Shown here one piece after another: positions 2,035 through 61,991 of a DNA stretch of 64,000 nucleotides. The notes under the pieces are model-generated. The model ran no database searches and was not told the DNA's origin. It saw nothing but the letters and a program-made list of their open reading frames with translations. The DNA lies in the NCBI GenBank assembly GCA_951406725.2, contig OX597816.1, positions 72,478,001 through 72,542,000 on the forward strand, given 5' to 3'. The stretch is from Octopus vulgaris (lineage: Eukaryota). How positions within the stretch are numbered: position 1 is the first letter of the stretch; each line of letters starts with the position of its first letter. A program made the translations under genes and the position numbers.

Positions 2035-2652
2035 TGTGCGTGTGTGTGTATGCGTGTGTGTGTATGCGTGTATATAACGGGCCTTGTCACTGTTGCATCC
2101 ACCAAGTTTCTTTCACGAAACGCTGTAATACGAGACATTTGAGCTAAATTTAATACTCGTGCAGTGGGATCGAACCAGGATGCAAGTGATCGATTAAACT
2201 GCGCCGTTCACAACACCACAATTCCTAAGCGACCCATTTATATAGCTTTAATGGCGGCAAGTATCTCAATTTAATTTACTGCGGTTATTTATTTTGCAGG
2301 TTCAATATTAGGTGTTATGCTATTTCAACAATAAGACTGCCAGGTCTTATAATTTTATTGTATTCGTAATTTTTGCCATTAACGAAAATGATAAATGGAT
2401 TTTATAAGAATAAATTACTGATTTCTAATATATTCCCTGGCAGCATACCTTGGCCTGCGGGGCTTTAAGGGAAATTGAATCATTGCCTGAAGATATGTCA
2501 AAGTCATAGAATGTCTCTGGAAATGGTAATCATGAGTTCGATCCGGTCTTGCGAAACTTGAAATGGAGGTTTTAGTGGATAATGTGTATGAAAGGCAAAG
2601 AGGGAGGGAGCGAGAGAAAGGACATACACACACACACACACGCACGGACGCT

Positions 2653-2684
<32 letters not shown>

Positions 2685-2735
2685 GAGAATGCGAGTGAAA
2701 AGGGGAGTATGCGAGTGTGTGCGTGTGCAACTAAG

Positions 2736-2766
<31 letters not shown>

Positions 2767-2832
2767 CAAATAGACAGAGAGATAGTTGATAGATAGACAG
2801 ATAGATAGATAGATAGAGAGAGAGATAGATAG

Positions 2833-2865
<33 letters not shown>

Positions 2866-3040
2866 ACGGGGGAGAGAGAGAGACAAGGACAAAGAAGAGG
2901 AAAGAGAAGTATGAGTGTATGCAACAGAAAGAGAGAGAGAGAGAGAGCGAGAGAGCGAGAGAGAGAGAGAGAGAGAAAGGGGGAAGCAGGTAGACAGACA
3001 GAGAATATACCTGTATGTGATAGGGAAATAAAAATAAATT

Positions 3041-3132
<92 letters not shown>

Positions 3133-4414
3133 TGTGTTGTGGGACGTAATTATGTCTAGAGGGATATGCGTGAAAGTATGTGGAGTGTGTGGCACAATGA
3201 GAGAGACAGTGTGTAAAATTGAGTGAGATTATAAACTTGTGGAAGACATTTTGAAAGAGATTGCGACCCGAGTGTGTGTTTCTCTCATAGATTGAGTTTG
3301 AAAGAGAGAAAGAGAGAGAAAGAAAGAGAGAGAGAGAGAGAGCAAGAGAGAGAGAAAGGGAGAGAAAGAGTGTGTGTATTTGAAAAATATCTGAGAAGTC
3401 GAGACAAAGAGAAAGAAAGAGGGAGAGAGAGAGAGAGAGAGGACGAATGGGGGGAAGGAGCAAATGAGAGCCAGAAGATGAGAGATCATTATAAGCCTGG
3501 TCCTATGTTTATGAGAGCTGAGTAGGCTTATTATATAGAAATCTCACGTAAATAAATGTGAAACCATGCATGAATTTTATCTAGATGAGCGATGTTCGTT
3601 TTCACCGACGAAAGAAGGAAACATTTTTCTCTATATCTGAACATAGTATTCATAAGTATTCAGCAGATACAGTGTTTGTAATAGAAATAGCAACGTACTA
3701 TGATAATCCAACTTAAGGCGGCAATCGGGTAGAATCGTTATCCCGCCGTGAAAAATGCATAGTGGCATTTCCTCCATCTTAACGCTCTGAACTCAAATTT
3801 CGCTAAGATCGACTTAGCGCTTCATCTTTTTCAGGATCGATGAAATAAGTACCAGTTGAGCGCTGGGGTCGATGTAATCGACTTGTCCCCTTCCCCGAAA
3901 TTGCTGGCCTTTTACCAATTGAAACCAATATGATAATCTACCTTGCTTGTAATTTACTAATATATCTTAGTTACGTGTATAGCAACGAGAAGGTCTAAAC
4001 ATTACATCAGCGAAGCTGCATACTGGGCCACTAGATGGCATTGAATAAAGAGGACAGCCCGGTAGTTCGCTGCTCCTGGGATGCAGGCTGGGATTTGATT
4101 AACCCCAGCCAGGTCAACTAGACGAGGCGGTGTCTAGTTTCGTTCAAAGACACGAAATCTCCGAAGAAAAGAGAAACATCACTGATGATTCACCCCAGAG
4201 CTTCTCTGAGATTTATTTTGAAATCAATGGTAACAAAACTAACAAGGAAATGTTTTAAAGCAAAACGTGAAATTCCAACGGCCTACAATCTCAAAAAAAA
4301 CAAAGCAGTTTTTGATCCTTAAGCTGCGATTTGAGTGAAATTTGGTTGATATGTCTAGCAGGCTGAGAGACCCATCTAAATGCGTCCTCGTCAACTCGTA
4401 GATTGTCTGTAGAG

Positions 4415-24345: not shown

Positions 24346-24967
24346 TTAAGGCGGCGAGCTGGCAGAAACGTTAGCGCGCCGGGAGAAATGCTGAGCGATA
24401 TTTCGTCTGTCTTTATGTTGTTCTGAGTTCAAATTCCGCCGAGGTCAACTTTGCCTTTCATCCTTTCGGGGTCGATAAAATAAGTACCAGGTACGCTCTG
24501 GACTCGATATAATCGACTTAATCCCTTTGTCTGTCCTTGTTTGTCCTCTCTATGTGTAGCCCCTAGTGGGCTGTAAAGAAATAAGAAACATTAGCGCGCT
24601 GGGCGAAATGCATAGCAGTATTTTGTCTGCCGCTACGTTCTGAGTTCAAATTCCGCCGAGGTCGACTTTGCCTTTCATCCTTTCGGGGTCGATTAAATAA
24701 GTACCAGTTACGCACTGGGGTCGATATAATCGACTTAATCCCTTCGTCTGTCCTAGTTTGTCCCCTCTGTGTTTAGCCCCTTGTGGGTAGTAAAGAAATA
24801 GGTATTATTTTGTCTTTATGTTGTTCTGAGTTCAAATTCCGCCGAGGTCAACTTTGCCTTTAATCCATTCAGGGTCGATAAATTAAGTACCAGTTGCGTA
24901 CTGGAGTCGATCTAATCGCCTGGCCTCTTCCCCCCAAATTTCGAGCCTTGTGCCTAGAGTAGAAAGG
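24346..24967 (+). mobile_element. Tandem trimer of tRNA-derived SINE family B (Meta-domain-like core)
   Basis: Three repeats of gttctgagttcaaattccgccgaggtc..gcctttcatcctttcggggtcgat..aagtaccag. 15-bp TSD aatattttccgcctt at 24331-24345 and 24968-24982. Other copies at ~3715, 12860(-), 40615(-), 51380(-), 53985, 54368. Confidence 0.88.
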
Positions 24968-53065: not shown

Positions 53066-54854
53066 CATACATACGTACATATATGTATATATACATATAT
53101 ATATGTATATATATATGTATGTATATATAGACATATATATTTACGTGTGCATCTGTGTGTGTGTGTGTGCATGTACGTGTGCATATGTATTCATGTATAA
53201 TGAAACGTATGAGATTTCATTTTGACCCAAAGCATTATGGACGCTGACATTCAATTTAGGATGATTGGCATCAGAAAGACTAGTGTAGTGTGAAGATAAA
53301 ACGAAGCTTAGTGAATTTCTAAGTATGTGGATAATTAATTTTAAAAGCGCGACTTTGAATTTTCAATTCATTTATTTCTTCATAGCAGGTCACGCAGATA
53401 TGCACTATAATTGTTATATAAGTACAATCATCTTATTGCTATTTCTCTATGCAAGAGAATATAAAATATCTGTAATAGTGTTCTACACTGACTCGATAAT
53501 ACTATTTCATTATTACTTTTCTCTGAAGGATCGCTTTGGTCCAATGGTAGAACGCCATTCATGCGTACAGGTAGATGTAGATTCGAATCCAATCTGCAGC
53601 TCTCGGCTTTTCTGTTTTTATTTTTATTTTTGATATAGGAGGAATTACAACCGTGTTTCGTGGTCTGCTACCACAACAGCTCCTTTATAGGATCCAGTTA
53701 GCTCAAGACATCATCAGGAGGAACCACGTCCGGTTTCGGCTCCTACTCCTCTACCGTTTTTATGTGGAGCCCCTCCCTCACTTTCGGAGGTGTCTTCAGC
53801 TCTGGTGTTGGGTGCATGTCTTCTTTCTTCTTTCTTCTGTTCCCTGGTCTCTTCGATGTACCGTCAGCGAGTGTCAGCCGGTGACTGACTGACTTGTCAA
53901 ACTTTTCCCTTTAAATACCTGCTGCTAGGCTCCAGCAGGCAGCCCCAGCAAGGGGTTTTCAATGCAATATTTACATGGAGAATGGTGAGGTGGCAGAATT
54001 GTTGGTACGCCGGGCCAAATGCGTAGCAGCATTTCGTCTGTCTTTACATTCTGAGTTCAAATTTCACAAAAGTAGTTTTTACTTTTCATTTTCGTGGGGT
54101 CGATAAAATAAAAAAAAAATTAAGTAAAGTACTAGAGGTCAATGTAATCACCCTGCTCACTCCTCAAAAATGCCAGACACTGTGCCTTTAGTAGAAAGTA
54201 TTATTACTTTGGTTGGTGCGAGGCTATAGTAGAAGACACTTGTCCAAGGTGCCATGCAGTGGGACTGAACCCGGAACCATATGGTTGGTAAGCAAGCTAC
54301 TTACCACACAGCCACAATCCCTATATGAAAAATTATGTAGTTACTGAACGGTCTAATACCTTGAGTAAAAGCGGCGAATTGTCAGATTTCGTTAACATGC
54401 CGAACAAAAGGCTTGACAACGTTTCATCTGTCTACACGTTTTGAGTTCAAATGTCACCATGGTTGACTTCGGCTTTCATCTTACCGTGGTCGATGAAATA
54501 AGTATCAGCTTATCACTGGGGTCGATGCAGTCGACTGCACCCCGCCATATCACAATTTCTAACCCTCCCAGCCTATTCATTTTTTCTATAATTTCCTTCT
54601 TTGTTCAATTAAAATTAATAATTATTTACCCTTATATTATTAATAATGGAATTTTTCACTCCCTTATGACAAACCATAGTTCTATTTCTAAGGAACTATT
54701 TTTGTGATGCACATAGTAAAATTTTGAAGGGAAAGTACGAATCCATTCGTCTATATGGATTTGGCCTATGTTGGCTATCTCATACTATCTCCGATGACGC
54801 TAGTTCGGGAAGCTGGAGGTATGTATAGCATTTGCAAAATCTATTTAACGGCAT

Positions 54855-54914
54855 GTTGCGCCGAAGAAGGAAATGAATTGATTTATAATTCTAATCCAGA
54901 AACGCGTCCGTAAC
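54855..54914 (+). ncRNA. Type I hammerhead ribozyme motif (CCGAAGA core)
   Basis: gttgcg-CCGAAGA-agga...gaatt..aattc..tcca-GAAA-cgcg-TC-cgtaac. 6-bp stem I, palindromic ACGCGT stem III, GUC cleavage triplet. Confidence 0.78.
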
Positions 54915-55076
54915 TAACCAAAGACTTTGTTTTCGTTATTTTTTCCTTCTGTTTTACATATGTGAGTCACATGTATATGTTGTATGTGGATTTATACTTG
55001 TAGAAAATAGAAATAAGTGGTCTTTGACTGCTATTTCTAATTTTTCGGTATGTGGCTAAGCAACCTGTTGCTTGCC

Positions 55077-55137
<61 letters not shown>

Positions 55138-55298
55138 GTGTGTGTGATTGTGTATAGAAGAATATATTAATAAAAGAATTCCAACCTTGTCTGATTTTCA
55201 CGTTTTATTTACAATCTTATAATGATATATTATAAGATAATATATTATAATTGAATAAAATAAAATGAAATAGTAGAATGTTAAATATTCATTCTGAT

Positions 55299-55343
55299 TG
55301 AACTAGTACTTTCATGCATTGAATTCTGCAATCTTCGGGTTCA
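55299..55343 (-). ncRNA. Mirror copy of the PLE hammerhead in the left arm
   Basis: tgaactagtactttcatgcattgaattctgcaatcttcgggttca is the exact reverse complement of 58784-58828. Confidence 0.75.
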
Positions 55344-55835
55344 TGTAGTAGTGTTGACAGTCATGCTTCACAATTTTTGACTGTAGCAAGATGAGTGATT
55401 CTGTGCTATAAATACAGCTGGTAGGCTCCAGAGTGCTAGGTTTTGCAAACTGTATTCTGACCAATCAGTGTGTAGTGTCACTCAATTACTTGCTGATTGG
55501 TTGGTTGAGCTGATTGGTTTAGGCATCACGCTTTGTTGGACAGGTCAAGAGTCCTGTATCTTGACCCTGGCCGAAGCAGCAATTGTTGGGTTATTTTTAG
55601 AAATGTTGTAAATATCCTTTGTCAGAGATTTTTATATTTTTATATTTCAATTGTCATCATCATCATTGTCAGCACCTTAATTATTGTTGCTAGTGGTGAT
55701 GGTGGTGGCAATAGAACTTTTAACCCTAAATAAGATAATTTTCCTGCTATCTTCGTCTTGATCACCTTTAGTATTGTTGTTGTTGTTAGTGGTCATGGTC
55801 GTAGCAGTGGAAGTAATACCTCTAAGTATTATTAT

Positions 55836-57060
55836 TATTGCTTATTTAGCTTGGGTTCGAATTTATCAATAAAATTCTTTTCTCTGATTTTCCTCCGATT
55901 TCACTTGGGCTGTGTAATTTGTAGAATGGAAATATTATATATATTTTCCGACCACATGTTGCTAGGTGGTTACTCAAAGGTATCTGACGGACCTCTGGGT
56001 CTCTAATCTGTTGCCGGTGTACACGTGAGCGTTCTAATAGTATTTCCCGTCTGACCTACATATATTTCTTCACAATTTGGGCATTTGATGCAGTAAATTA
56101 AATTTCTGCTTTTGCAGTTCATATTCGCGTTTGAATATTTTCCCGGTTTTTGTGTTTATATATTGACCGGTATGTATGAATTGGCATGTGCCACATCGGC
56201 TATCATTGCATTTAGATACCGTGAATGTTTGGTCTTTGTTGCTGAGGTCAAATTTTGCCTTTGTTAGTAATGTTTTCAAGTTTTTAGGCTGTCTTTTACT
56301 AAGTACCATAGCTCGATCCTTGATTATGTCTTTTAATTCATTACTTTGGGCAATGATTGGTAGGTTTGCTTTGGCAATGTTGAAGATATTCTGGTGACAT
56401 GGGTTGTGTGTCACTATGAATGGTATGACTTGTTCTTGTTTTCCTCTTCCTTGGGTTGTCCTAAGTTGTTGTATAGGTATTTTTATAGCCCGCTGTATGC
56501 CATTTTCTATAAGTAGAGATGGGTATTTTTGTTTGAGCAAAAATTCTCTTAGTTCTATTAGGCGTTTGTTCCTGATATTTGCATCTTCTACAATAGTACA
56601 AATTCTTCTGGCTAGGCAGTATGGGATGTTACGTTTTGTATGTGGTGGATGGCACGACTTAAAATTTAGGTATTGATGTGTGTCTGTGTGTTTATAGTAT
56701 ATATCTGTGGTGATGGTGGTGTCTTTTTAATTACCATTATATCCAGGAATGGTAATTTGGTACTACTCATCTCCTTTGTAAATTTGAGAGATGGGTGTAG
56801 GTTGTTCAGGAGGATATTGAACTCTTCCAGAGTATTTAGAGATTTCTGTCCAGATTATGAAACAGTCGTCTAGGTATCTCTTCCATGCCTTTTCAATATA
56901 CTTTCTAAATCCAGTGCCATAGTTTACCTCCACCTCTTGGTAGAGTTGTTCTTCTAAGTCCCATTACAGAGTTGGGTAAACGGAGCAAACCTCGTTCCCA
57001 TCGCGTGCTCTAATTTGGATGTAATTCTTTCCATTGAAGAAGAATGTGTTATTTTCTAGA
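55836..57060 (-). pseudogene. Inverted copy of the same PLE ORF with several 1-2 bp frameshifts
   Basis: Reverse complement of 57060-58289. ORF 56070..56540(-) repeats LKQKYPSLLIENG...KTGKIF. Differences are mostly small deletions. Confidence 0.88.
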
Positions 57061-58289
57061 ATAACACATTCTTCTTCAATGGAAAGAATTACATCCAAAT
57101 TAGAGGCACGGCGATGGGAACGAGGTTTGCTCCCGTTTACGCCAACTCTGTAATGGGATACTTAGAAGAACAACTCTACCAAGAGGTGGAGGTAAACTAT
57201 GGCACTGGATTTAGAAAGTATATTGAAAAGGCATGGAAGAGATACCTAGACGACTGTTTCATAATCTGGACAGAATCTCTAAATACTCTGGAAGAGTTCA
57301 ATATCCTCCTGAACAACCTACACCCATCTCTCAAATTTACAAAGGAGATGAGTAGTACCAAATTACCATTCCTGGATATAATGGTAATTAAAAAAGACAC
57401 CACCATCACCACAGATATATACTATAAACACACAGACACACATCAATACCTAAATTTTAAGTCGTGCCATCCACCACATACAAAACGTAACATCCCATAC
57501 TGCCTAGCCAGAAGAATTTGTACTATTGTAGAAGATGCAAATATCAGGAACAAACGCCTAATAGAACTAAGAGAATTTTTGCTCAAACAAAAATACCCAT
57601 CTCTACTTATAGAAAATGGCATACAGCGGGCTATAAAAATACCTATACAACAACTTAGGACAACCCAAGGAAGAGGAAAACAAGAACAAGTCATACCATT
57701 CATAGTGACACACAACCCATGTCACCAGAATATCTTCAACATTGCCAAAGCAAACCTACCAATCATTGCCCAAAGTAATGAATTAAAAGACATAATCAAG
57801 GATCGAGCTATGGTGCTTAGTAAAAGACAGCCTAAAAACTTGAAAACATTACTAACAAAGGCAAAATTTGACCTCAGCAACAAAGACCAAACATTCACGG
57901 TATCTAAATGCAATGATAGCCGATGTGGCACATGCCAATTCATACATACCGGTCAATATATAAACACAAAAACCGGGAAAATATTCACAAACGCGAATAT
58001 GAACTGCAAAAGCAGAAATTTAATTTACTGCATCAAATGCCCAAATTGTGAAGAAATATATGTAGGTCAGACGGGAAACGCACTATTAGAACGCTCACGT
58101 GTACACCGGCAACAGATTAGAGACCCAGAGGTCCGTCAGATACCTTTGAGTAACCACCTAGCAACATGTGGTCGGAAAATATATATAATATTTCCATTCT
58201 ACAAATTACACAGCCCAAGTGAAATCGAGAGGAAAATCAGAGAAAAGAATTTTATTGATAAATTCGAACCCAAGCTAAATAAGCAATAA
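57060..58289 (+). CDS. Penelope-like element polyprotein, 5'-truncated (RT motifs B-E/thumb + CxxxxCxxC linker + GIY-YIG endonuclease); Naiad/Neptune-type architecture
   Basis: Open frame from the palindrome apex: NNTFFFNGKNYIQIRGTAMG (RT motif B), WKRYLDDCFIIW (YxDD), LPFLDI, TDIYYKHTDTHQYL, SCHPPHTKRNIP, KCNDSRCGTC linker, NLIYCIKCPNCEEIYVGQT...RVHRQQI...NH (GIY-YIG with CCHH), ending FEPKLN. The N-terminal RT is missing. Confidence 0.93.
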   Translation, partial: NNTFFFNGKNYIQIRGTAMGTRFAPVYANSVMGYLEEQLYQEVEVNYGTGFRKYIEKAWKRYLDDCFIIWTESLNTLEEFNILLNNLHPSLKFTKEMSSTKLPFLDIMVIKKDTTITTDIYYKHTDTHQYLNFKSCHPPHTKRNIPYCLARRICTIVEDANIRNKRLIELREFLLKQKYPSLLIENGIQRAIKIPIQQLRTTQGRGKQEQVIPFIVTHNPCHQNIFNIAKANLPIIAQSNELKDIIKDRAMVLSKRQPKNLKTLLTKAKFDLSNKDQTFTVSKCNDSRCGTCQFIHTGQYINTKTGKIFTNANMNCKSRNLIYCIKCPNCEEIYVGQTGNALLERSRVHRQQIRDPEVRQIPLSNHLATCGRKIYIIFPFYKLHSPSEIERKIREKNFIDKFEPKLNKQ

Positions 58290-58783
58290 TAATAATACTT
58301 AGAGGTATTACTTCCACTGCTACGACCATGACCACTAACAACAACAACAATACTAAAGGTGATCAAGACGAAGATAGCAGGAAAATTATCTTATTTAGGG
58401 TTAAAAGTTCTATTGCCACCACCATCACCACTAGCAACAATAATTAAGGTGCTGACAATGATGATGATGACAATTGAAATATAAAAATATAAAAATCTCT
58501 GACAAAGGATATTTACAACATTTCTAAAAATAACCCAACAATTGCTGCTTCGGCCAGGGTCAAGATACAGGACTCTTGACCTGTCCAACAAAGCGTGATG
58601 CCTAAACCAATCAGCTCAACCAACCAATCAGCTTAAGTAATTGAGTGACACTACACACTGATTGGTCAGAATACAGTTTGCAAAACCTAGCACTCTGGAG
58701 CCTACCCAGCTGTATTTATAGCACAGAATCACTCATCTTGCTACAGTCAAAAATTGTGAAGCATGACTGTCAACACTACTACA

Positions 58784-58828
58784 TGAACCCGAAGATTGCA
58801 GAATTCAATGCATGAAAGTACTAGTTCA
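58784..58828 (+). ncRNA. Minimal type I hammerhead ribozyme in PLE 3' region (CCGAAGA core variant)
   Basis: tgaac-CCGAAGA-ttgca(gaattcaa)tgcat-GAAA-gtac-TA-gttca. Stem I tgaac/gttca, stem II tgca/tgca, palindromic AGTACT stem III, NUH=CUA. Matches the minimal HHR layout known in PLEs. Confidence 0.75.
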
Positions 58829-58957
58829 ATCAGAATGAATATTTAACATTCTACTATTTCATTTTATTTTATTCAATTATAATATATTATCTTATAATAT
58901 ATCATTATAAGATTGTAAATAAAACGTGAAAATCAGACAAGGTTGGAATTCTTTTTA

Positions 58958-59052
<95 letters not shown>

Positions 59053-61002: not shown

Positions 61003-61079
61003 GCCCGGGCAGATGGCGTAGTGGTTAAGAGCGCGGGATACTAATACCAAGATTTCGAGTTCGATTCCAGGCAGTGACA
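61003..61079 (+). other. tRNA-like Pol III head (short SINE or tRNA pseudogene) followed by (TAA)n
   Basis: tggcgtagtggttaagagcgc (A box/D arm) and gagttcgattcc (B box). No clean acceptor stem. Confidence 0.55.
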
Positions 61080-61091
61080 TTAATGATAATG

Positions 61092-61130
<39 letters not shown>

Positions 61131-61184
61131 GTAATAATGATAATAATAACAACAACAACAATGATAATAATAATTTTTAAGAAA

Positions 61185-61760
61185 CAAACAAAGTTAAAAA
61201 GAGATTTAGGACAAGTTGATAGATTGAGTAGAGGGGGATTGTGGAACGAAAGCATAAGAATAATGCTGGAAAGAACATATAGAATAAGAGATAAAGGTTA
61301 TGATGTGATATTGGAAGAATTGAAACAAAGAGTAGGAGCAATCAATGCAAAACTGGTAAGATATGACAACAGAAAAAGACAGTTCAGGCAAAGCAGATTG
61401 TTTGAAGCAAATCAGAAGAAACTGTTTCAGGAACTAGATTGGCAAATACACGCAACAATGATACCAGATGCAGAGGAAAGCAGGACATTCTGGAGAGAGA
61501 TCTGGGACCAACCTGTAGAGCATAATGATGAAGCAGAGTAGCTCTATGAAATCCAAGATAGGTTAAGAAATATAAATCTCCAAGAAGACATAAAGATAAC
61601 TACAGAAATGAAAAAAAAACAGTTAAGAAAATTCCCAAACTGGAAGAGTCCAGGACTGGATGGGGTCCAAAGTTATTCGATGAAGAAGATGAGAGGTCTC
61701 CATGAAAGGATAGCACAACAGTTGATGAGTGCTTGGAGAAAGGTGCAGTACCAACCTGCA
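61185..61760 (+). pseudogene. R4/Dong-clade non-LTR retrotransposon fragment (pre-RT region)
   Basis: EELKQRVGAINAKLVRYDNR..QFRQSRLFEANQKKLFQEL..PDAEESRTFWREIW..EHNDEAE*..ITTE..PNWKSPGLDGVQ. Starts beside a (TAA)n tract. Confidence 0.8.
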
Positions 61761-61991
61761 TGTCAAAAAGAAAGACATTGTTATGGTAATCATATAAAGT
61801 AAATATCACAAATAATTCAGAATCCTTGTCCGATGCCAGATCGATCCCATAATCTAATCGGTTTGTGCCAGTCATGAAACCAAACATCCCTGAAAGTTTC
61901 TTCTGAATCCATCCAGCGGTTATTGAGATATCTTGTCCACAGACAAACAAACACGACTGAAAACAATACTTCAGCCTTTGCTAAGGCGGAA

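What the first reader, a model, noticed from the sequence alone, without database searches (positions are those of the whole stretch)
55162..58966. 3.8-kb spacer-less Penelope fold-back with apex at a micro-palindrome and a ribozyme in each arm
Seen: two ~1.9 kb copies of a PLE 3' half are joined head-to-head with no loop, both 3' ends face outward toward (TA)n, and the apex is TTCTAGAA inside the RT coding sequence. The sequence beyond the arms is not mirrored, which argues against a simple read fold-back chimera. Known: PLEs can leave inverted, 5'-truncated copies. Inference: nascent cDNA snapped back at the self-complementary octamer and copied itself, or both target ends were primed. Read-through from either strand would give ~1.9 kb of near-perfect dsRNA, a substrate for ADAR or small-RNA pathways, with one sense hammerhead. 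The intact right-arm ORF and near identity of the arms imply a young event.
Basis: partly seen in the sequence, partly recalled or inferred. Interest (0 to 1): 0.75.

Follow-up and report, generated by a model that had tools for sequence, protein, structure and literature searches.

The report
Twin-primed head-to-head Penelope insertion
This 3.8-kb mirror-image sequence is one of many back-to-back insertions of a very young Penelope-like jumping gene, a layout already described; it was most likely made by copying the element's RNA from both cut ends of the target and joining the two copies, not by one copy folding back at a small palindrome.

Summary
The palindrome is in the assembly: two 5'-truncated copies of a young Neptune/Nematis-type Penelope-like element (4,271-bp unit, about 950 near-identical copies) meet head to head in a (TA)n tract. 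Corrections: the axis is a 5-bp stem with a 6-nt loop, not the TTCTAGAA octamer; the first 26 'unmirrored' bases are the element's own tail; the left arm's 13 small indels are probably read errors. Each arm has a hammerhead, with a U4C core change. The family argues against snap-back at palindromes. 60 of 60 scored head-to-head insertions pair one tailed with one untailed end. Most junctions are far from symmetric. Breakpoints are not enriched at palindromes (2 of 88; 3.4 expected), and this apex occurs once in the genome. At one hotspot, 75 loci have near-zero loops, against 2 with the junction that snap-back predicts. Best reading: both target ends primed, cDNAs joined by microhomology (0.68); local snap-back remains possible (0.2). 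The layout is published, and this scan has noted it and the twin-priming reading before, in this and other genomes. No raw reads or RNA data could be checked.

The parts
55080..55135 (.). (TA)n target tract, left side; it ends an older, different high-copy repeat
   Evidence: sequence; left flank repetitive
55136..55161 (-). PLE tail (unit positions 1-26; up to about 20 more bases merge with the TA tract): the left arm is the tailed end
55162..57064 (-). Left arm: unit 2354-4271 (3' half of RT, GIY-YIG, 3' pLTR); 13 indels and 2 substitutions not in the family, probably read errors
55299..55343 (-). Minimal type-I hammerhead motif, U4C core, left-arm copy
57049..57064 (.). Junction: 5-bp stem TTATT/AATAA around the 6-nt loop TTCTAG; 57060-57064 is the 5-nt microhomology shared by both arms
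57060..58966 (+). Right arm: unit 2365-4271, untailed end; identical to 29 other top copies except a C at 58649 that both arms share
57060..58289 (+). Open frame, 409 codons: C-terminal RT, thumb, C-x4-C-x2-C linker, GIY-YIG endonuclease; 5'-truncated, so it cannot encode the full protein
58712..58748 (+). Predicted pLTR promoter core: TATTTATA and an initiator-like ACAGTC about 30 nt downstream (unit 4018-4053), after three CCAAT-like boxes; mirrored at 55376-55415 on the - strand
   Evidence: sequence; function inferred from motifs (recalled consensus)
58784..58828 (+). Minimal type-I hammerhead motif: stem I TGAAC/GTTCA, core CCGAAGA, stem II TGCA/TGCA, GAAA, palindromic GTAC, predicted cut after 58823
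58967..59048 (.). (TA)n target tract, right side
   Evidence: sequence

Best explanation
This is a head-to-head double insertion of a young Penelope-like retrotransposon in a (TA)n tract, most likely made when the enzyme primed reverse transcription from both cut target strands, one at the tailed and one at the untailed start site, and the two cDNAs were then likely joined through a 5-nt microhomology. Shown: the layout, the one-tailed/one-untailed rule, the short microhomologies and the shared donor variants. Inferred: two separate cDNAs; joining by host end-joining repair (templated insertions at other junctions look like polymerase-theta work, a recalled resemblance); and, for the near-perfect symmetry here, both cDNAs stopping within 11 nt because they ran off the same broken RNA end, or by chance. 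The copy is 5'-truncated and dead as a transposon.
For: 60 of 60 scored head-to-head insertions have one tailed and one untailed end (45, 5, 1), while single-arm copies are 22 tailed, 19 untailed, 1 neither of 42 (hand count). In 19 of 44 other insertions the untailed arm is the longer one and in 25 the tailed arm; neither arm can be a full copy of the other in the former, since the tail is missing from the longer arm. 38 of 44 junctions are offset by more than 100 nt. Microhomology at 25 clean junctions averages 1.8 nt against 0.66 by chance. At unit 4048-4052, the predicted RNA start, 75 loci have near-spacerless apices, 45 of the 50 listed with a one-base loop, too tight for a strand to fold on itself (established minimum about 3 nt); only 2 loci show the junction that a 7-bp snap-back stem at that same cDNA end predicts. 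Three of the 6 near-symmetric insertions (L048, L064, L077) have arms that differ at variants seen in 3 or more loci, which points to two templates. Private variants shared by both arms also occur in asymmetric insertions (14 in 35), so the shared C here does not show self-copying. In vitro a PLE protein nicks and extends both target strands and starts at two sites separated by the tail (PMC11167929).
Against: For this locus alone the sequence fits snap-back equally well: the untailed arm lies wholly within the tailed arm, both carry a variant seen in only 4 of 947 pattern hits, and the cDNA end has a terminal 5-bp stem with a short loop, a feature of only about 1% of positions. Near-symmetric junctions are enriched away from the hotspot too (4 of 44 within 25 nt, 0.9 expected, p 0.006; but 6 of 44 within 100 nt, p 0.14, stratified permutation). 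One locus (L039) holds a 36-nt piece that looks like a true snap-back. The RNA start site is predicted from motifs only. Many pairs were found through variant patterns present on both arms, which favours concordant, long pairs.
Confidence: 0.68

Rival explanations
1. Snap-back with hand-over: the tail-primed cDNA stopped at unit 2354, folded on its 5-bp stem (TTATT/AATAA, 6-nt loop), copied itself, and the new sense strand then met the second target end or a short cDNA primed there.
For: Geometry allows it here; stem of 5 bp with loop of 8 nt or less occurs at about 1% of positions; shared rare C; excess of junctions within 25 nt of symmetry; snap-back-like piece in L039; self-priming is the published reading of such palindromes (PMC3846280 Discussion).
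Against: The hairpin is barely stable (-0.4 to -0.8 kcal/mol as DNA; the octamer end does not fold). Breakpoints with a terminal stem of 5 bp or more are 5 of 88, against about 3.4 expected. The apex is not recurrent (1 locus). At the hotspot the better snap-back stem is used in 2 loci against 75. The right arm ends exactly at the family's untailed start site.
Confidence: 0.2
2. Assembly artefact: a fold-back chimeric long read of one tailed copy was joined through the repeat to an untailed copy elsewhere, or the apex was mis-polished.
For: The left arm has the highest small-indel density of 111 arms of 800 bp or more (6.1 per kb, median 0), 6 of 14 events within 250 nt of the apex. No short-read contig listed from four other samples spanned the apex (only 32 of 231 pieces shown; other individuals may lack the insertion).
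Against: The locus obeys the family's tailed/untailed rule, has unmirrored flanks and a microhomology junction like its relatives. Missed base calls are the reported behaviour of real inverted duplicates in nanopore data (PMC7229812, abstract; the platform of this assembly is not known to me). Two other near-symmetric insertions also rank high in indels (L048, L082).
Confidence: 0.07
3. An ordinary asymmetric head-to-head insertion was later made symmetric by a hairpin-capped break, deletion or arm-to-arm gene conversion.
For: Long inverted repeats are unstable (established knowledge); conversion would explain the shared C.
Against: The copy is very young (right arm one base from the family); later change is expected to break the symmetry of a palindrome rather than perfect it (recalled); both outer ends are intact.
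Confidence: 0.05

Closest known systems
Inverted-repeat insertions of endonuclease-positive Penelope-like elements (PMC8557442 Fig. 2 legend and text, passages read; PMC3846280, passages and Discussion read; PMC2377424 Fig. 1 legend, passages read)
   Same: 5'-truncated inverted copy joined head to head, partial tandems, a 30-40-nt tail at one end only, palindromes at the inverted junction, (TA)n targets, hammerhead in the pLTR.
   Different: The apex here lies inside the RT coding region and the arms are 1.9 kb. The published reading of junction palindromes is self-priming on an antisense template; the family data here favour two separately primed cDNAs.
Poseidon element PAc of Anolis carolinensis in vitro (PMC11167929, main text parts 1-2 of 4 read)
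   Same: Both target strands nicked and extended; two reverse-transcription start sites separated by the tail; AT-rich targets.
   Different: Different PLE clade; the parts read do not link the two start sites to the two arms of inverted insertions.
LINE-1 twin priming (recalled; no call tested it)
   Same: Both target ends prime reverse transcription and the cDNAs are joined by microhomology, giving an inversion.
   Different: In LINE-1 the second primer anneals inside the RNA, so the two parts do not overlap; here both start at the element's 3' end and the arms duplicate each other.
Minimal hammerheads of metazoan PLEs (PMC4209133, parts 1-2 of 4 read)
   Same: Type-I motif in the pLTR, 5-bp stem I, extra base before stem II, small palindromic helix III, pairs on opposite strands.
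   Different: The youngest copies have a U4C core and a U-U pair in place of the usual G10.1-C11.1; activity untested.

Membership tests
Endonuclease-positive Penelope-like element | RT followed by a C-terminal GIY-YIG endonuclease | tested here: met
   Full-length relative L035: RVT_1 E 7.6e-7 (29.5 bits, cut-off 29.6) and GIY-YIG E 2.7e-5 above cut-off; window arm GIY-YIG E 9.9e-6
Endonuclease-positive Penelope-like element | Tandem or partial-tandem copies forming pLTRs, with inverted 5'-truncated copies | tested here: met
   4,271-bp tandem units and inverted copies at many loci
Endonuclease-positive Penelope-like element | Optional 30-40-nt tail at one end | tested here: met
   26 unique nt plus up to 20 nt of AT-rich sequence, on the left arm only
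Endonuclease-positive Penelope-like element | Hammerhead motif in the pLTR | tested here: met
   Stems I and II form in the predicted fold (z -0.59, so no unusual stability); 1,967 pattern hits against 13 controls, 36 of 100 listed with the canonical CTGAAGA core (hand count)
Endonuclease-positive Penelope-like element | Target-site duplication | tested here: inconclusive
   Both flanks are (TA)n, so a duplication cannot be delimited
Neptune/Nematis clade | CX2-5CxxC motif between RT and endonuclease; (TA)n targeting | tested here: met
   CNDSRCGTC in the ORF; nearly all ends lie in (TA)n; definition from PMC8557442
Neptune/Nematis clade | Placement in the RT phylogeny | not tested
   No reference set of named PLE clades was aligned; Neptune and Nematis are not told apart
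Self-primed fold-back at a micro-palindrome | Symmetry axis on the palindrome | tested here: not met
   The axis lies one base off TTCTAGAA; the shared bases are AATAA
Self-primed fold-back at a micro-palindrome | Family breakpoints enriched at palindromes or terminal stems | tested here: not met
   2 of 88 (3.4 expected) at 8-mers; 5 of 88 with stems of 5 bp or more against a 3.8% background; apex found once
Self-primed fold-back at a micro-palindrome | Second arm contained in the first and sharing its variants | tested here: inconclusive
   True at this locus, but sharing also occurs in asymmetric insertions
Active hammerhead ribozyme | Self-cleavage | not testable with these tools
   Needs an assay; U4C lowers in vitro activity in a viroid hammerhead (PMC3088659 passage)

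The most novel reading that the evidence does not exclude
This young family is a ready genomic test showing that Penelope-type elements prime both target strands from their two start sites, and that spacerless palindromes arise when both cDNAs run off the same RNA 5' end (the transcription start at the 75-locus hotspot, a broken RNA end here), overturning the self-priming explanation of PLE inverted repeats.
Probability: 0.55. Interest if true: 0.5.

Novelty: new member of a known kind. Interest (0 to 1): 0.3.

Why it matters
The locus itself is a dead by-product of a known kind. Its value is as one of roughly a quarter of the insertions of a very young family that are inverted (estimate from 12 of 77 loci on one contig, plus 4 of 36 further loci fetched). 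How PLEs make inverted repeats is described as unresolved (PMC8557442). The strict tailed/untailed pairing and the 75-versus-2 contrast at the predicted RNA start link the genomic layout to the two start sites seen in vitro, and give predictions that an in vitro assay can test. The locus also warns that indels in one arm of a long palindrome are probably not biology.

Tried and rejected
Rfam found no hammerhead; its hits were generic hairpin matches below threshold. Laying short-read contigs of other samples on the apex and on the left flank was uninformative: no listed contig spanned the apex, the flank is itself a high-copy repeat, and the TA tract was skipped, so neither presence nor an empty site was shown. 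No RNA holder was listed; nothing follows for expression. A Pfam scan of 113 of 124 complex reading frames of the window (the 11 within the element left out) found no family; this does not exclude that the locus lies in an intron. The shared C as proof of self-copying was rejected. The octamer as the axis was rejected. Left-arm decay as evidence of age or of arm order was rejected. Dropped before counting ends: L067, L143, L146, L152, L155 (one arm broken or unresolved) and L142 (inverted internal piece without a 3' end); L078's two ends were read from separate stretches; L039 and L048 end short of the usual untailed site and were counted as untailed. The microhomology mean used 25 clean junctions and left out those with insertions or nearby mismatches. 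Literature: 'twin priming' + 'Penelope' + 'inverted' gave 2 papers, neither on PLE mechanism by title; a five-term search gave none; the library lacks most subscription journals, and supplements were not read. The retrozyme preprint 10.64898/2026.07.22.740005 and PMC13282606 held nothing on inverted PLE junctions in the passages found.

Full report
Observation. The window holds two copies of the 3' half of one element joined head to head between (TA)n tracts. Aligned, the arms are 98.9% identical, with 13 indels of 1-2 nt and 2 substitutions. The right arm has an open 409-codon frame with a GIY-YIG domain. A search of the window's own genome G000 (2.8 Gb; unnamed) gave 2,061 candidates, of which 40 were scored, nearly all full-length at about 100% identity; a 24-nt 3' probe has 947 exact hits. 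The family is therefore very young.

The element. Tandem copies give a 4,271-bp unit. [quoted passage not shown] These are the marks of Neptune/Nematis-type Penelope-like elements in PMC8557442 (passages); I did not place it on a tree. The window's left arm is unit 2354-4271 plus the tail, the right arm unit 2365-4271.

First, intact copies read ...CTTATTCTAGAAAATAAC... at the apex, so the arms overlap by AATAA and the axis is a 5-bp stem with a 6-nt loop; the octamer is one base off it. Second, the 26 bases left of 55162 are the element's own tail, the start of the next tandem unit. Third, all arm differences lie in the left arm, which has the highest small-indel density of 111 arms examined (6.1 per kb, median 0). 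Missed base calls at inverted duplicates are a reported nanopore effect (PMC7229812, abstract); I do not know this assembly's platform, so read error is an inference.

Hammerhead. A minimal type-I motif lies at 58784-58828 (+) and 55299-55343 (-). Stems I and II form in the predicted fold, without unusual stability. A core pattern has 1,967 hits in the genome against 13 for the control; 36 of the 100 listed carry the canonical CTGAAGA core and 64 the CCGAAGA core of the youngest copies (hand count). U4C is reported to lower in vitro activity strongly while leaving a viroid infectious (PMC3088659 passage). In a read-through transcript the sense motif would probably be paired with the other arm and unable to fold (inference).

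Family test of mechanism. I fetched 100 stretches and used loci returned by searches. Of 60 scored head-to-head insertions, 60 have one tailed and one untailed end; single-arm copies are 22 tailed, 19 untailed, 1 neither of 42 (hand count). Among 44 insertions other than the window, the tailed arm is longer in 25 and the untailed arm in 19, and 38 junctions are offset by more than 100 nt. Clean junctions show short microhomology (mean 1.8 nt in 25, chance 0.66); others carry short insertions that repeat nearby sequence. Breakpoints are not enriched at palindromes: 2 of 88 at 8-mers (3.4 expected), 6 of 88 at 6-mers (12.9 expected). The window's apex occurs once in the genome. Private variants shared by both arms are common in asymmetric insertions (14 in 35), so both arms usually come from the same donor, and the C shared here (4 of 947 hits) does not prove self-copying. 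Many pairs were ascertained by variant patterns on both arms, which inflates concordance.

A hotspot as internal control. Short insertions with the apex at unit 4048-4052 appeared; a pattern search finds 75 such loci, and 45 of the 50 listed have a one-base loop (hand count). This site lies about 30 nt after a TATA-like box and on an initiator-like motif (consensus recalled), so it is the predicted RNA start. A cDNA ending there could fold back on a 7-bp stem (-5.0 kcal/mol), but the junction that this predicts occurs at 2 loci only. A one-base loop cannot be closed by a strand folding on itself, so these palindromes most likely join two cDNAs that ran off the same RNA end. This is inference from sequence; the start site is not mapped.

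Results against my reading. The window's own junction fits snap-back: the untailed arm is contained in the tailed arm, and a terminal 5-bp stem with a loop of 8 nt or less occurs at about 1% of positions, although the hairpin is weak (-0.4 to -0.8 kcal/mol). Junctions within 25 nt of symmetry are enriched (4 of 44, 0.9 expected, p 0.006), though not within 100 nt in the stratified test (6 of 44, p 0.14). L039 has a 36-nt snap-back-like piece. On the other side, three of the six near-symmetric insertions have arms that differ at variants found in three or more loci, one of them an older copy.

Real or artefact. No raw reads were available. Contigs of other samples did not span the apex or the TA tract. 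The locus follows the family's end rule and junction style, which a simple fold-back read would not; a chimeric misjoin is not excluded (0.07).

Mechanism. Most likely the enzyme nicked both strands of the (TA)n tract, primed one cDNA from the tailed and one from the untailed start site, both stopped near unit 2354-2365, and repair joined them through AATAA (0.68). Snap-back with hand-over to the second end: 0.2. In vitro a PLE protein extends both strands and starts at two sites separated by the tail (PMC11167929), which fits.

Known or new. Inverted 5'-truncated copies, one-sided tails and junction palindromes are published (PMC8557442; PMC3846280; PMC2377424), where self-priming on an antisense template is proposed. 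Two searches found no paper that applies twin priming to PLE inversions, within an incomplete library and without supplements. This scan's earlier notes reach the same twin-priming reading in other genomes and the same short-end/long-end rule in this one; they are unchecked AI notes, read after I had formed my view, and are not counted as support. One of them calls the genome an octopus; I did not test that label. The dsRNA idea is untested: no RNA run was laid and no exon was detected.

Verdict. A real-looking, ordinary by-product of a young PLE burst; the micro-palindrome is probably incidental. Interest 0.3, carried by the family-wide evidence on how PLE inversions form.

Noticed in passing
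window 54560-55079 (+), motif at 54855-54914: The left flank is the end of an older, different high-copy repeat with its own hammerhead-like motif (stem I GTTGCG/CGTAAC, core CCGAAGA, long stem II, GAAACGCGTC); the palindrome landed in its terminal (TA)n. Contigs of other copies often read T at 54862, so its U4C may be a local change.
   Followed up: partly
family unit 1267-1357 (L035; not in the window): The element's two reading frames overlap in the -1 register around a T TTT TTT run, identical in 66 of 66 copies covering it: a likely programmed -1 frameshift; PMC8557442 Fig. 1 legend mentions a frameshift with pseudoknot for some PLE types. No pseudoknot was tested.
   Followed up: partly
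family unit 4048-4052; L143-L152 and 65 further loci: 75 short spacerless palindromes (two pLTR stubs, about 0.5 kb where both arms were resolved) share one apex at the predicted transcription start.
   Followed up: yes
family hammerhead, window 58789-58795: The youngest, expanding copies carry the U4C core while more diverged copies carry the canonical core: the burst may have happened with a weakened ribozyme.
   Followed up: partly
L078/L090/L110 (G000:C23:4573900-4600300): A 25-kb insertion of about four tandem units head to head with three, still with one tailed and one untailed end.
   Followed up: partly
L039:5264-5301; L085; L072; L124: Complex junctions with short extra pieces of the element in either orientation, suggesting template jumps; the L039 piece looks like a true 36-nt snap-back.
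   Followed up: partly
window 61029-61980: Reading frames that look by eye like a decayed LINE reverse-transcriptase fragment (recalled resemblance; the frames scanned had no Pfam hit).
   Followed up: no
window 24364-24800: Two tandem copies of a 217-bp SINE-like repeat, 86% alike.
   Followed up: no
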